NCBI GenBank assembly: GCA_039938575.1 | Contig: JBDUUJ010000079.1 | Location: forward strand, 10,067-74,066 | Origin: Nitrososphaera sp. | GTDB lineage: Archaea > Thermoproteota > Nitrososphaeria > Nitrososphaerales > Nitrosopumilaceae | DNA length: 64,000 bases | Direction of reading: 5' to 3' | Part shown: in pieces, positions 34,230-42,282 of the stretch | Layout of the letters: every line of letters starts with the position of its first letter | Numbering within the stretch: position 1 is the stretch's first letter | Translations under genes and position numbers: made by a program | The notes under the pieces: generated by a model | The model's input: only the letters and a program-made list of their open reading frames with translations | Databases searched by the model: none | What the model was told of the DNA's origin: nothing

Positions 34230-34769
34230 ATGTCCGAAACTCAACCAAAGTTATTGGTCGAGTCATACGAAGATCCGTTTGTTAGGATCGCTGCAATGAT
34301 TGGTGGAGACGAATACCTCAAAGTGGCCCGTGCGCTGCTCAAAGCAGAAGACGCAACAGACGAAGAAATTGCCAGCTCAACTGGACTTAGGATAAACATG
34401 GTAAGAAAGGTGCTTTACGATCTTTTTGGAAAAGCCCTCATCACAGGAATTCGCGTAAAGGACGAACGAAAAGGCTGGTTTGTCTACAGGTGGCGCTCAA
34501 GAAAAGATGAGGTAGAGAACTTTATCGAGAACCAGAAAAAAAAGATTGCGGACAGATTGCAGCAAAGACTTGACTATGAGAACTCGTCACAGTTCTATCA
34601 TTGCGGCAACGAAGACTGTCCTAGGATCACCTTTGAGACTGCACTTGAGATGTTCTTCAAATGCCCAAGGTGCGGTGGCGTTGTGAATCTCAAGAAAAAT
34701 GACAAGCTCAAAAAGGCACTAGAGTCAAAAATCACAGAAATAAGAAACGACATGCGTCGTCATCTCTGA
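34230..34769 (+). CDS. tfe: Transcription factor E (TFE alpha)
   Basis: wHTH (TDEEIA..VRKVLYDL, GWFVYRW) + Zn ribbon (CGNEDC..CPRCG). Confidence 0.95.
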   Translation: MSETQPKLLVESYEDPFVRIAAMIGGDEYLKVARALLKAEDATDEEIASSTGLRINMVRKVLYDLFGKALITGIRVKDERKGWFVYRWRSRKDEVENFIENQKKKIADRLQQRLDYENSSQFYHCGNEDCPRITFETALEMFFKCPRCGGVVNLKKNDKLKKALESKITEIRNDMRRHL

Positions 34770-35413
34770 TAGTGCAACACGATTTCACTATCATAACGCA
34801 CGGCTTTTTTCAGCTTCAGTTTTAATGAATCTGCAATATTTGCAAATCCAGCTCCTTCTACTAGGGTGGTTGCAGCTGTTCCGCCGACCAGACATGGCGA
34901 TATAGTGACTATGACTTCATCTACAAGTCCTTTGCTTACGAAATCCCAGTTGGTTGTCCCCCCACCTTCAAGTAAGATGGTTCTGATTCCTTGTTTGTAG
35001 AGAATCTTGAGGAGTTTTTTTATCTCTACTTTAGTTTTTCCTGCAGTTATCATCTTGATTGGATATCTTGCAAGCTTTGAGAGATTCTTCTTTGGTGCTG
35101 TTTTTGAGACTGCAATGATTGTTGGAATTAGATGGGATGTTTTTATTATCTTTGAGCATGTGGAGATTTCTGCACGTGAATCAAGAATTATTCTTGTTGG
35201 GTTTTTTCCCTTTACGTATCGCACAGTAAGTAGTGGATCGTCTTTTTTGACTGTGTTTTTGCCCACCAGTATTGCGTCGGAGCTGGCACGCAGTCTGTGC
35301 ACTCGTACTTTGTCGTGCTTTGAGGATATCTCCGAGTTACCTGTCTTTGTGGCGATTTTGCCGTCCAACGAGACTGCCGCGCTCAGAATTATGTGTGGTC
35401 TAGATTTTGCCAT
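34760..35413 (-). CDS. ribD: 2,5-diamino-6-ribosylamino-pyrimidinone 5'-phosphate reductase (RibD C-terminal/ArfC)
   Basis: SLDGKIA, DAILVG, DDPLLTVR, LLEGGG. Confidence 0.92.
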   Translation of the reverse strand: MAKSRPHIILSAAVSLDGKIATKTGNSEISSKHDKVRVHRLRASSDAILVGKNTVKKDDPLLTVRYVKGKNPTRIILDSRAEISTCSKIIKTSHLIPTIIAVSKTAPKKNLSKLARYPIKMITAGKTKVEIKKLLKILYKQGIRTILLEGGGTTNWDFVSKGLVDEVIVTISPCLVGGTAATTLVEGAGFANIADSLKLKLKKAVRYDSEIVLHYQR

Positions 35414-36572
35414 GAACTATTTTGCCTCCAACCATGACTGCCCTTATTGTGGATTCAGATGCCCTGTGCACTATTGCGGCGTACGGGTTGAACATCGGCT
35501 CAAAATCAAGCGCATGCCTCTCAAAGAATATTCCATCTGCGAAATATCCTGGCTCAATTGAGCCGATTTTTCTTCCAAGTAGCACGCCACCGTTTACTGT
35601 AGCCATTTTTAGTATCTGTTTTGGGTCTAGTCTTTTTTTGTTCAGACCCATATACACCTTCCATGCGTAATCCATCTCCTTGAACATGTCTGGTGAGTTT
35701 ATCATGACATTGTCTGTTCCTATTGCGACAATGCAGCCGTTTTGTTGCATGTATACAAAATCTGGAATTCCTTCTGCAAGCGATGCGTTTGCTCTTGGAC
35801 ACACCACTATTCCGCGTGTCTTTTTTGCAGCTACACTCAGATCGGATCTTGATGCATACGTCATGTGCACAAGAAAATGTGGCTTTGCAAGAAGCGCTCT
35901 TGCAGTTTCTGATCTTTTTGTAGTTTTCATGGAGACGGTAGAGCTTTCTTGAGTTTCTGCGCTATGTATGGCCCGAATTTTTTTTGTTCTAGAATATGCA
36001 CGCAAAACAGAATCGCTGTTTTCATTTGGCCCGCTGATGCCGATGCCGTCACAGTATTTTAGTATTGATTCAAGCTCTTTTTTTCTGTCAGTCGGCAGTG
36101 GTGTGTTTTTTTTGATCTGGTTTTTGTCTTGATAATACTCTACTCTGCCAAGAATCACTCCCCGAATCGGCACCTCTTCTAGTACACTTTTTAACAACAT
36201 GATACCTTCCAGGCCGCCTTCTCTGAAATCAACAAAAGTTGTAATTCCTTTTTTGAGCATGGAGTAGCAAGTGTTTTTCATAAAATGTGTAAGGTGCTCA
36301 GGGTTTGAGTTGTTCAGGATTTTTCTTTTTGCGCCCAACATTGGATGTATTTTGCTATCCACTGATCCTTTCAATGCGGCGTCTTTTCCTATAGAATCGC
36401 CTATATGGGTGTGCATGTTTACAAAACCTGGCACAAGCAAAAGCCCTTGGCAGTCAACAATATCTTTGCTGTCAGACTGTTTTACAAAAAGACCGTTTGA
36501 TGTCTGCAGGGTGGTAGATGAAACATATTCTAGGTCTTTGCCGTACAGAACGCTGACATTTTTTAAAAGCAT
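35400..36572 (-). CDS. Metal-dependent amidohydrolase
   Basis: PGFVNMHTHIGD, HSAE, LVHMT, VAIGTDN. Confidence 0.88.
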   Translation of the reverse strand: MLLKNVSVLYGKDLEYVSSTTLQTSNGLFVKQSDSKDIVDCQGLLLVPGFVNMHTHIGDSIGKDAALKGSVDSKIHPMLGAKRKILNNSNPEHLTHFMKNTCYSMLKKGITTFVDFREGGLEGIMLLKSVLEEVPIRGVILGRVEYYQDKNQIKKNTPLPTDRKKELESILKYCDGIGISGPNENSDSVLRAYSRTKKIRAIHSAETQESSTVSMKTTKRSETARALLAKPHFLVHMTYASRSDLSVAAKKTRGIVVCPRANASLAEGIPDFVYMQQNGCIVAIGTDNVMINSPDMFKEMDYAWKVYMGLNKKRLDPKQILKMATVNGGVLLGRKIGSIEPGYFADGIFFERHALDFEPMFNPYAAIVHRASESTIRAVMVGGKIVHGKI

Positions 36573-37318
36573 GACATTTCGTATATGGCAGGTTTTTCTT
36601 TTCCTGCCTTCCTGATTTCTCTAATTGTGTCAAGCGAGTTGGTTGCAAGCTTGACTGCTTCTCTTGCTGTTTTTGCCGTTCCTATGCCGCAGTTGAATGT
36701 AATGCCGAACTCTTTTTTTGCTAGTTCCAAGAATTCCTGTGCATCTTTTTTTGCATTATCGGTTCCCACCACCATAAAGTTGTCTCCCCCCATGAAAAAC
36801 GCAAGAGATTTTTTTGCCATAAAAAATTCAGACATTCTTGCATACAGCTTAAAGATGATTGAAGAGATCTCGTAAGGAGATTTTGTTTTTCTTGTTGATG
36901 TGATGTTTTCAACATCAAAATGCATTATCGTCACTTTCTGGTTTGCGGTGCCGTTGACAAATCCATAAACTGTGTTTTTCTGATCCAAGACGACTTGCTT
37001 CATCTTTGCTTCATATGCCTTTAGATTCGCATCAAAGGGATTGTCGGCATACCCAATTGACATAGACATCTTGAGGCTTGACGCTTTTGCTAACTTTTGC
37101 TGGATTTCAATGTGGTCATCAAGCCCAAGACCGTTTGTGATGACAAAAAACTCGTCAAACCGGTTGGAGAATACAAGGCAGTTTTTCTCTGAGAAGAGTT
37201 TTTGCAGCTCTCTGTACAGGTTTGCCTGCAGCATCTGCAACTCATGCTCTCTGTCTGAGCCAAGCGTCAGTGTCCACGGTCCGTACTCTGTTATTTTTAC
37301 TATAGTAAGCTGGATCAT
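36563..37318 (-). CDS. gch3: GTP cyclohydrolase IIa/III
   Basis: YGPWTLTLGSDREHELQMLQA, RFDE, FMGGDN. Confidence 0.93.
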   Translation of the reverse strand: MIQLTIVKITEYGPWTLTLGSDREHELQMLQANLYRELQKLFSEKNCLVFSNRFDEFFVITNGLGLDDHIEIQQKLAKASSLKMSMSIGYADNPFDANLKAYEAKMKQVVLDQKNTVYGFVNGTANQKVTIMHFDVENITSTRKTKSPYEISSIIFKLYARMSEFFMAKKSLAFFMGGDNFMVVGTDNAKKDAQEFLELAKKEFGITFNCGIGTAKTAREAVKLATNSLDTIREIRKAGKEKPAIYEMSCF

Positions 37319-37728
37319 CGAATCTTTTCAAGCTCCTTTGATATCTTGAACACTGCTTCAACGGCACGTTCTGCTACGGGTCTGATTCTAGCGTGGGCAT
37401 GCCTTTGCTGCATTCCGGGTCCTGATATTCCAAGTGAGACTGGTTTTTGGTACTTTATGGATAGTTCTGTAAGTGATTTTGCCGTCGAATTTGCGATTGT
37501 TTCGTCGTGCTTTGTTTGCCCCTTTATGATGGCGCCAAGCGTGACTACGCCGTCTACGTCCTTTTTTTGCAATAATGCGTCAACTATTAGCGGCATATCA
37601 TAAGCCCCAGGAGCCTTGCACGAATATTTGACTTCCAGTTTGAGAGCCCTTGCTTTTTCCAACGCAACTTGAAGCATTCTTGATGTTATCTCTTCGTTGA
37701 ACTCCGCCGTCACTATTGCAATATTCAA
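37315..37728 (-). CDS. ribH: 6,7-dimethyl-8-ribityllumazine synthase
   Basis: IAIVTAEFN, PGAYDMP, LGAIIKGQTKHD; TTG start 37728. Confidence 0.95.
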   Translation of the reverse strand: MNIAIVTAEFNEEITSRMLQVALEKARALKLEVKYSCKAPGAYDMPLIVDALLQKKDVDGVVTLGAIIKGQTKHDETIANSTAKSLTELSIKYQKPVSLGISGPGMQQRHAHARIRPVAERAVEAVFKISKELEKIR

Positions 37729-37729
37729 A

Positions 37730-38404
37730 TTAGTGCACCTTTGAGAATTCGAGGAGTTCTTTGCCATCGACAAACGGGATGGCGTTTTCCTTTGCAAATT
37801 TCTGTGCCTTTTCTACCGTCAGCGCAGAATAGGTTTGCGAGTCCATCATCTCGCAGATTGCAGTCATTGGTGTGAGCTTTGCAAGCTCTGCCAGATATAC
37901 AGACATTTCTGTGTGTCCCTGTCTGCTTGCAAGAAGGCCGTTTGATGCCAAAAGCAGCGGTACGTGTCCAGGTGTAGTAAATGATGAGACGAACTCTTTT
38001 TTTGGATCATCTGTGTGGTAGATGTTTGCCATCTCTTTGATTGTCATGGCCCTGTCCCTGTCGGTGATCCCAGTGTAGGTTTGTTTGTGGTTTATTGAGA
38101 TCGAAAATGTAGGGTGGTCTCCATATGGCGCTGTACCCATGATCATCTGTTTGATGTCAGCATCCAAATCGGCAGAGCCGGAAAGTATGTTGTGCATGTA
38201 TTTTAGGTTAAGAGATTTTGCAAAAGAGTCCTTTATTGCAAGACAAATGAGCCCGCCTGCATTCTGGCGCATCCTTGAGATGTGTTCTGGTGTCACAAAC
38301 TGTGCGGCCACTACCATATCCACCTCGTTTTCACGGCCACCTGAATCGTACAGAAGCACAAACTCACCGCGCTTTAGGGAGGATATTGCGTCTTGAAGAC
38401 TCAT
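37730..38404 (-). CDS. ribB: 3,4-dihydroxy-2-butanone-4-phosphate synthase
   Basis: RENEVD, GLICLA, TGITDRDR, PGHV, RQGHTE, ICEM. Confidence 0.95.
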   Translation of the reverse strand: MSLQDAISSLKRGEFVLLYDSGGRENEVDMVVAAQFVTPEHISRMRQNAGGLICLAIKDSFAKSLNLKYMHNILSGSADLDADIKQMIMGTAPYGDHPTFSISINHKQTYTGITDRDRAMTIKEMANIYHTDDPKKEFVSSFTTPGHVPLLLASNGLLASRQGHTEMSVYLAELAKLTPMTAICEMMDSQTYSALTVEKAQKFAKENAIPFVDGKELLEFSKVH

Positions 38405-38476
38405 GTTCAAAATTGGTTTTGCATGAATAATAAAGGTTACTCAAAAATTAGTAATTACCACTAAATTGGTAGTAGT

Positions 38477-41154: not shown

Positions 41155-42282
41155 ATGAAGATAGCTGGAATCACACTGATTCTACTTGTAGCAACACTTG
41201 CAGTTCCATTGGAGCATGCGTTGGCACAGACTGCAATCTCGTCTCCACCAACAGGCCTTAGCGCCAAAGCTGTATCTGGCTCTCAGATCAATTTGAGCTG
41301 GACTGCACCTCAAAACAGTACTATAAACGGCGTAAACGGATACAGAATAGAGCAAGACATAGGCTGCATTGGAATATTTTCAGTTCTTGTTGAAAATACC
41401 ACATCAGCTAGCACTACATTCTCAAGTACAGGTCTGTTAAGCGACTTTTGCTATTCATACCGGGTATCTGCACTTAATTCGGCAGGCGCAAGCGCCACAT
41501 CCAACATAGCTTCTGCCACCACTTACGGAACACCAAATGCACCTACAGGGCTGATAGTGACTGCAATATCTAGCTCCTCATTAAAGCTGAGCTGGAATCC
41601 ACCATCCGACGATGGAGGAAGTGCGGTAACTGGATACCAAATTCAAAGAAACGGCACGATTCTTGTGACAAACACAGGTAACAACCAAACTACGTATCTG
41701 GACACAGGTCTATCACCACAACATCAACAGACCTATCGCGTAGCTGCATGGAATGTCGTAGGACTTGGAGCCTTCTCGGCAAACGTAACCAAGGCGACAA
41801 ACCAGACCAATACTCAACCCACACCCAAGGATAACCTGGGACAGGCAGTCTCCGATTTTGTACAAAAAAGAAACGAATTGTTCAAAAAACAGCGTGAAGA
41901 GACACTAAAGATAATCAGAGAATGCACTGAAAAAGTGAAAAATGCAAACGCCACGCAGATAAAGGAAATAAAAGATGACTGCCGCGAGGCACTCCATTCA
42001 ATTAAGGAAAAATACAAAGAGGCACGAAAGCAGTTCCAGCAGGATTTCAAAACATTCAGAGAGAGTACCAAGTTGTTGCTCAAAGAGGCAAAGAAGGCCG
42101 ATTTAGTAGAAAAACACGATGTAAAAGAGATCAAGCGTGAAATCAAGTCACTTGAAAATGAGACAAAGCAAGCTGAAAAACAATTAAAACACGACATCAA
42201 AGAATTCAAAAAAGAAGTAAAAAAACAGAAAAAAGAAGTAAAAAAGGAAAAGAAAAGCGACCGAGATGACGAAGAGGACTAA
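41155..42282 (+). CDS. Secreted protein: two fibronectin type III domains + charged coiled-coil tail
   Basis: PTGL..INLSWTAP..YRVSALN; LSWNPPSDDGGSAVTGY..YRVAAWN; K/E-rich C-terminus. Confidence 0.9.
   Translation: MKIAGITLILLVATLAVPLEHALAQTAISSPPTGLSAKAVSGSQINLSWTAPQNSTINGVNGYRIEQDIGCIGIFSVLVENTTSASTTFSSTGLLSDFCYSYRVSALNSAGASATSNIASATTYGTPNAPTGLIVTAISSSSLKLSWNPPSDDGGSAVTGYQIQRNGTILVTNTGNNQTTYLDTGLSPQHQQTYRVAAWNVVGLGAFSANVTKATNQTNTQPTPKDNLGQAVSDFVQKRNELFKKQREETLKIIRECTEKVKNANATQIKEIKDDCREALHSIKEKYKEARKQFQQDFKTFRESTKLLLKEAKKADLVEKHDVKEIKREIKSLENETKQAEKQLKHDIKEFKKEVKKQKKEVKKEKKSDRDDEED

What the first reader, a model, noticed from the sequence alone, without database searches (positions are those of the whole stretch)
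35400..36572. Amidohydrolase embedded in the riboflavin operon: candidate missing enzyme
It overlaps gch3 upstream and the reductase downstream. The archaeal route needs a formamide hydrolase (ArfB) after GTP cyclohydrolase III and a pyrimidine deaminase. Neither is in this operon, and the reductase lacks a deaminase domain. This metal-dependent hydrolase could supply one or both steps. The operon also mixes archaeal early steps with a bacterial-type riboflavin synthase.
Basis: partly seen in the sequence, partly recalled or inferred. Interest (0 to 1): 0.55.

Follow-up and report, generated by a model that had tools for sequence, protein, structure and literature searches.

The report
Predicted archaeal riboflavin pyrimidine deaminase gene
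This gene in an ammonia-oxidising archaeon very probably encodes the deaminase step of archaeal vitamin B2 and coenzyme F420 synthesis, for which I found no published assay, but its family was already proposed for that job in 2010 and 2017, so it is a well-supported rediscovery.

Summary
35400-36572(-) is an intact 390-aa metal-dependent hydrolase overlapping gch3 (10 nt) and arfC (14 nt), in a Ca. Nitrosotenuis-like genome. It belongs to NCBIfam PRK07213 and is the only genome hit of M. jannaschii MJ0699 (32%). That family was already proposed in print as the archaeal pyrimidine deaminase 'PyrD' (PMC5397151, PMC8305020); I found no assay.

The deaminase reading is well supported. It has the HxH/HxxE/H/D site of aromatic deaminases and lies behind tandem RbkR-type operators. 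In 201 sampled phylum genomes it occurs in 82 of 83 that need the deaminated precursor (gch3+ribH, or cofG) and in 1 of 118 others. Lineages without gch3 carry it in AH-arfC-cofG-cofH operons.

The 'also replaces ArfB' reading is weak. The genome has a separate creatininase-family gene, and in other archaea such a gene shares the operon, or is fused, with this hydrolase. A bacterial-type riboflavin synthase in archaea is also published.

This scan reported the same family before on other DNA (28 notes match). Verdict: a real gene, a known prediction, low novelty.

The parts
35400..36572 (-). Metal-dependent amidohydrolase of the PRK07213 / MJ0699 ('PyrD') family; predicted deaminase of 2,5-diamino-6-ribitylamino-4(3H)-pyrimidinone 5'-phosphate. 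Site residues H54, H56, H203, E206, H236, D287; family-specific D59, K82, E118, R143, R260, N288
34760..35413 (-). arfC, reductase-only RibD C-terminal protein (archaeal pyrimidine reductase)
   Evidence: PF01872; TIGR01508 above cut-off
36563..37318 (-). gch3/arfA, GTP cyclohydrolase III
   Evidence: PF05165 178.6 bits
37315..37797 (-). ribH, lumazine synthase (true start probably the TTG at 37728, just after the ribB stop)
   Evidence: PF00885, TIGR00114; sequence
37730..38410 (-). ribB, DHBP synthase
   Evidence: PF00926, TIGR00506
38427..38434 (-). TATA-like box (TTTATTAT) directly after the operators
   Evidence: sequence; same position in relatives
38437..38472 (.). Two adjacent RbkR-type palindromes (TTAC-N10-GTAA; one exact at 38437-38454, one with 1 mismatch at 38455-38472)
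   Evidence: at least one site in 82 of 85 ribB upstream regions, usually a tandem pair 18 nt apart; motif as published for Thaumarchaeota (PMC5397151)
38477..39067 (-). ribE, bacterial-type (alpha-chain) riboflavin synthase
   Evidence: PF00677; TIGR00187 above cut-off

Best explanation
The protein is the archaeal pyrimidine deaminase of the flavin/deazaflavin pathway. Gch3 opens GTP to the formylated pyrimidine, a creatininase-family enzyme removes formate, and ArfC reduces ribosyl to ribityl. This enzyme then hydrolyses the C2 amino group of 2,5-diamino-6-ribitylamino-4(3H)-pyrimidinone 5'-phosphate to give the 2,4-dione, which after dephosphorylation feeds both RibH (riboflavin) and CofG/CofH (FO/F420). 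Inferred mechanism, from solved relatives: one Zn/Fe ion held by H54, H56, H203 and D287 activates water, with H236 as base; E206 of HxxE protonates the ring; ammonia leaves. Conserved K82, R143 and R260 may bind the ribityl phosphate. Shown here: family, intact site, fold, synteny, operator, distribution. Inferred: the substrate, its phosphorylation state and the chemistry.
For: (1) All six deaminase-type site residues are invariant across 30 diverse members. The AF2 model (pLDDT 91.7) matches MTA/adenosine, isocytosine and guanine deaminases and AtzA, TMq about 0.8-0.85. Isocytosine and guanine carry the same 2-amino-4-oxo-pyrimidine group as the proposed substrate (established chemistry). 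(2) It is single copy and sits between gch3 and arfC across AOA. It is linked to rib genes in other families too, e.g. adjacent to gch3 in 9/9 genomes of family f29 (coordinates). (3) Where gch3/ribH were not found it sits with arfC, cofG and cofH (G151, G243, G173, G275, G270, G223), the other pathway that needs the deaminated product. (4) Profile scores are bimodal (>=297 vs <=164 bits). The gene is in 82/83 genomes with gch3+ribH or cofG and in 1/118 others; without the AOA family the figure is 51/52. In 18 class-level genomes, the same 8 have gch3 and the hydrolase (7 of those 8 were picked from earlier hydrolase hits). (5) No RibA and no RibD-type deaminase domain were found in this 99.9%-complete genome, which has cofG/cofH. 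(6) It lies in an RbkR-type controlled unit. (7) It is the sole genome hit of MJ0699, the published candidate.
Against: No enzyme assay or knockout was found in the searchable literature; three older papers I tried to open were not held. In M. jannaschii, Methanotorris and Methanobacterium the gene is not near rib genes, and in several euryarchaeotes it is linked to Usp/CBS genes. Related, probably bacterial members sit in catabolic-looking clusters, so the fold and family do not fix the substrate. Genomes are kin, so the co-occurrence counts are not independent, and the profile was partly built from genomes chosen for having gch3. One gch3+ribH genome (G317, 170 contigs) lacks a hit.
Confidence: 0.8

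Rival explanations
1. The enzyme is bifunctional, or mainly a formamide hydrolase that replaces ArfB in ammonia-oxidising archaea, deformylating the Gch3 product.
For: It follows gch3 directly. The genome's creatininase-family gene is unlinked (next to purU), scores only 43 bits against the ArfB model (cut-off 180), and does not group with rib-linked creatininase-family proteins in an unresolved quick tree. One genome (G310, 98% complete) has a full operon with the hydrolase but no creatininase-family hit.
Against: A creatininase-family gene is present in 76 of 77 gch3 genomes (the family is also common elsewhere, 147/201) and is single copy in all 31 AOA-family genomes. It lies in the same operon as the hydrolase in G003, G006, G022 and G167 and is fused to it in P0212. 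A protein annotated as creatininase and unlike ArfB in sequence was shown to deformylate this substrate (PMC9478397), so a low ArfB score does not exclude the role. The hydrolase persists in 7 genomes with no gch3 found. The site is of deaminase type.
Confidence: 0.06
2. It is a flavin-pathway deaminase but acts at another point, on the unreduced ribosyl compound (bacterial order) or on the dephosphorylated ribityl compound.
For: Sequence cannot fix the order. No phosphatase is assigned for archaea (PMC8305020 supplement).
Against: Reviews state that reduction precedes deamination in archaea. ArfC passes TIGR01508, whose named substrate is the diamino compound. Conserved basic residues suit a phosphorylated substrate (inferred).
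Confidence: 0.08
3. It is a nucleobase/nucleoside or pterin deaminase unrelated to flavin synthesis, and the gap is filled by another protein such as the dCMP-deaminase-like gene on C41.
For: The closest solved relatives are MTA/adenosine/guanine deaminases. Some euryarchaeal and bacterial contexts are unrelated to flavins.
Against: It follows two different consumers of the same precursor (rib and cof operons). It is nearly absent where neither is found. Family-specific residues separate it from the MTA/SAH-type paralogs. The C41 protein matches ComEB/dCMP-deaminase-type models, not RibD.
Confidence: 0.06

Closest known systems
'PyrD', predicted archaeal pyrimidine deaminase (Osterman, Overbeek, Rodionov 2010, as cited in PMC5397151); candidates MJ0699/Q58110 and HVO_2483 (PMC8305020); database label 'Pyrimidine deaminase archaeal predicted'; NCBIfam NF005552/PRK07213 'chlorohydrolase'
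   Same: Above the NF005552 cut-off (317.7 > 294); 32% identical to MJ0699 over 394 aligned residues, with 20 of 21 checked key residues identical; same proposed role and the same clustering argument
   Different: Nothing of substance; this is the AOA ortholog. MJ0699 is not in a rib operon, whereas this copy is.
Amidohydrolase-superfamily aromatic deaminases (PA3170-type MTA/adenosine deaminase 4gbd/4dyk, TM0936, isocytosine deaminase Vcz 7ww2, guanine deaminase, AtzA/TrzN)
   Same: Fold and HxH / HxxE / H / D catalytic set
   Different: Only 16-22% identity; family-specific HxHxxD, DFRE, CxRxN and GTDN motifs; far below those families' cut-offs
ArfB (MJ0116) and BrbF formamide hydrolases
   Same: Same pathway; metal-dependent C-N hydrolases
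   Different: They are creatininase-family proteins. This protein has no creatininase domain, and a separate creatininase-family gene exists in the genome.
RibD deaminase domain / yeast Rib2
   Same: Equivalent reaction (Rib2 also acts after reduction)
   Different: Cytidine-deaminase (CDA) fold, unrelated to this TIM-barrel enzyme

Membership tests
PRK07213 / MJ0699 ('PyrD') family | Score above the NF005552 cut-off | tested here: met
   317.7 vs 294 bits
PRK07213 / MJ0699 ('PyrD') family | Orthology to MJ0699 | tested here: met
   MJ0699 (P0395 = Q58110) has this gene as its only tblastn hit in the genome, E 4.6e-51. Both fall on the same side of the split from 9 paralogs (SH-aLRT 89, quick tree). 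The reverse search against the whole M. jannaschii proteome was not run.
PRK07213 / MJ0699 ('PyrD') family | Clustering and co-occurrence with riboflavin pathway genes | tested here: met
PRK07213 / MJ0699 ('PyrD') family | Orthology to HVO_2483 | not tested
   Sequence not obtained; NF005552 rings in H. volcanii at E<=1e-30 (control)
Archaeal pyrimidine deaminase (function) | Deaminates the reduced diaminopyrimidinone phosphate | not testable with these tools
   Needs an assay; none found in the papers searched
Amidohydrolase-superfamily aromatic deaminases | HxH, HxxE, His and Asp site on a (beta/alpha)8 barrel | tested here: met
   3D distances in the model were not measured
ArfB/BrbF formamide hydrolase | Creatininase domain PF02633 / NF033501 | tested here: not met
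   No such hit for this protein; the family is encoded elsewhere in the genome
MTA/SAH, 5'-deoxyadenosine, guanine, 8-oxoguanine deaminases; chlorohydrolases AtzA/TrzN | NCBIfam equivalog cut-offs | tested here: not met
   All about 100 bits or less against cut-offs of 375-779
RibD/Rib2 CDA-type deaminase | PF00383 CDA domain | tested here: not met

The most novel reading that the evidence does not exclude
In ammonia-oxidising archaea (and genomes such as G310) this one TIM-barrel enzyme performs both deformylation of the Gch3 product and deamination, replacing ArfB, while the purU-linked creatininase-family gene does something else.
Probability: 0.06. Interest if true: 0.55.

Novelty: already known. 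Interest (0 to 1): 0.2.

Why it matters
The deaminase is an unproven step of archaeal riboflavin and F420 synthesis, so an assay would close a real gap, including for methanogens. But the candidate family has been named since 2010 and is a standing annotation label. This locus adds support (operator, rib and cof operon linkage, a creatininase fusion) and a mesophilic protein to express, but no new idea.

Tried and rejected
ArfB role for this protein: rejected as unlikely (see rivals). Assigning the genome's creatininase-family gene firmly as ArfB: not achieved; it is below the NF033501 cut-off and the quick tree leaves its relations open. RibA: none in the genome or in five gch3-less genomes. 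The dCMP-deaminase-like gene as the pyrimidine deaminase: no RibD match, unlinked. NF005552 at E<=1e-30 missed divergent members in family f21, so a custom profile (A2) was used instead. The search for related loci returned only close AOA. I looked for essentiality or assay data for MJ0699 and the M. maripaludis ortholog (CAF30936; I inferred the tag MMP1380 from the accession): no hit, and three papers were not held. A single RbkR-like site is not significant in the window (37 matches vs 23 expected); the tandem pair at a conserved position is the evidence, and I ran no shuffle control for the 82/85 count.

Full report
Observation. The ORF at 35400-36572 on the minus strand is intact (390 aa, ATG start) and overlaps the upstream gene by 10 nt and the downstream gene by 14 nt. 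Reading on the minus strand, the cluster is ribE (bacterial-type alpha riboflavin synthase), ribB, ribH, gch3, the amidohydrolase (AH) and arfC. ArfC matches only the reductase half of the bifunctional RibD model and passes the archaeal reductase model TIGR01508. The nearest named proteins come from Candidatus Nitrosotenuis (87-88%), so the host is very likely an ammonia-oxidising archaeon of that genus. The assembly is 99.87% complete.

Family. The protein passes the cut-off of NCBIfam NF005552 (PRK07213 'chlorohydrolase', 317.7 vs 294 bits) and is far below the cut-offs of the characterised deaminase families. An AlphaFold model (pLDDT 91.7) matches MTA/adenosine deaminases, isocytosine deaminase Vcz, guanine deaminase and AtzA/TrzN at 16-22% identity. 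In 30 diverse members H54, H56, H203, E206, H236 and D287 are invariant, as are D59, K82, E118, N262 and N288. The first six are the mononuclear-metal HxH/HxxE/H/D set of amidohydrolase-fold aromatic deaminases (established knowledge). A profile of these members scores true members at 297 bits or more and paralogs at 164 or less.

It is the published candidate. PMC5397151 says a candidate archaeal pyrimidine deaminase, 'PyrD', was proposed from clustering and co-occurrence (its ref. 10, 2010) and 'remains to be tested'. PMC8305020 names HVO_2483 and MJ0699 as the candidates. I retrieved MJ0699 (P0395 = Q58110). It aligns over the full length at 32%, has this gene as its only hit in the genome, scores 316 bits on the family profile, and shares 20 of 21 checked key residues. 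A neighbouring Methanocaldococcus cluster carries the label 'Pyrimidine deaminase archaeal predicted'. I found no assay in the searchable library; some older papers were not held. Earlier notes of this scan reached the same reading on other genomes (28 notes match). I saw them only after forming and testing my own reading.

Support for the deaminase role. (a) gch3-AH-arfC are adjacent in 78 of 80 named AOA loci, and the order is kept in other families of the order and class. (b) Two adjacent TTAC-N10-GTAA palindromes lie just upstream of a TATA-like box before ribB. At least one site is present in 82 of 85 relatives, matching the published thaumarchaeal RbkR operator. (c) In other Thermoproteota families the gene is again next to rib genes, e.g. 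adjacent to gch3 in all nine f29 genomes; in f21, f23 and f34 it is unlinked but present. (d) In six genomes where gch3 and ribH were not found it sits with arfC, cofG and cofH. CofG/CofH use the deaminated product, so the gene follows the compound, not one end product. (e) Among 201 phylum genomes, 83 have gch3+ribH or cofG, and 82 of them have AH; only 1 of the other 118 does (G265, fragmentary, where AH is next to arfC). Two genomes with an orphan ribH lack it. In 18 class-level genomes the same 8 carry gch3 and AH, and a closed same-order genome (G146) lacks both. Kin are not independent and the profile was partly built from gch3 genomes, so these counts are supportive, not a statistical test. 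(f) This genome has no RibA and no RibD-type deaminase, but has cofG/cofH.

The ArfB question. The genome has one creatininase-family gene (C16:44671-45315) next to purU. Its ExHG..D, NGHxGN and HA..ETS motifs look intact. It is single copy in all 31 sampled genomes of the family and forms one AOA clade. It scores only 43 bits on the ArfB model, and the tree does not tie it to rib-linked homologs, so its role is unproven. But a protein annotated as creatininase and unlike ArfB in sequence does this reaction in Sinorhizobium (PMC9478397). Creatininase-family genes share the operon with AH in G003, G006, G022 and G167, and one metagenomic protein fuses the two domains (P0212). That points to two complementary enzymes. 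The one hint for double duty is G310, a full operon with AH and no creatininase-family hit.

Caveats. In Methanococcales and Methanobacterium the gene is not near rib genes, and in several euryarchaeotes it travels with Usp/CBS genes. Related, probably bacterial members lie in catabolic-looking clusters and vary at K82 and N262. The substrate and the order of steps are inferred.

Verdict. This is a real, intact gene, very probably the archaeal pyrimidine deaminase (about 0.8; about 0.88 including a different point of action). It is unlikely to replace ArfB (about 0.06). The prediction is already published and the 'mixed' operon is already tabulated. Novelty: already known, as an untested prediction. 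Interest 0.2.

Noticed in passing
window 38437-38472: Tandem RbkR-type operator and TATA-like box between ribE and ribB, conserved across AOA; suggests ribE lies outside the regulated ribB-ribH-gch3-AH-arfC unit.
   Followed up: yes
L001:1483-3038 (G000 C16): Single-copy creatininase-family gene coupled to purU (formyltetrahydrofolate deformylase) in nearly all AOA checked; best candidate for the ArfB step in AOA, unproven.
   Followed up: partly
P0212; L263:7001-8629: 542-aa fusion of a creatininase-family domain with this amidohydrolase family in a JGI metagenome contig; no rib genes are annotated next to it.
   Followed up: partly
L137-L140 (G151, G243, G173, G275): AH-arfC-cofG-cofH operons in genomes where gch3, ribA and ribH were not found; G151 (100% complete) and G243 also lack a creatininase-family gene. 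How these genomes make the pyrimidine from GTP is unexplained.
   Followed up: partly
L157 (G310): Complete arfC-ribB-ribC-like-ribH-gch3-AH operon in a 98%-complete genome with no creatininase-family hit.
   Followed up: partly
L118:1745-1790: In one Nitrosopumilaceae MAG, gch3 seems collapsed to a roughly 45-nt remnant between ribH and AH (deletion or assembly artefact).
   Followed up: partly
L086:6449-6826: arfC matches only from residue 92, well after the AH stop; possibly broken or interrupted in this MAG.
   Followed up: no
L270, L271, L273, L274: In euryarchaeotes the hydrolase is often followed by Usp and/or CBS-domain genes; in Methanosalsum the same string ends in a RibD_C reductase.
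   Followed up: no
L265-L268: Probably bacterial members of the same hydrolase family lie in catabolic-looking clusters (MmgE/PrpD, luciferase-like, 2Fe-2S subunit, other amidohydrolases); likely a different substrate.
   Followed up: no
L229:6767-7231 and L228:1196-1636: Orphan ribH genes in genomes (G309, G234) where gch3, cofG and the hydrolase were not found.
   Followed up: partly
window 41155-42282: Secreted-looking protein with two fibronectin-type-III-like repeats and a long K/E-rich C-terminal helix (judged by eye).
   Followed up: no
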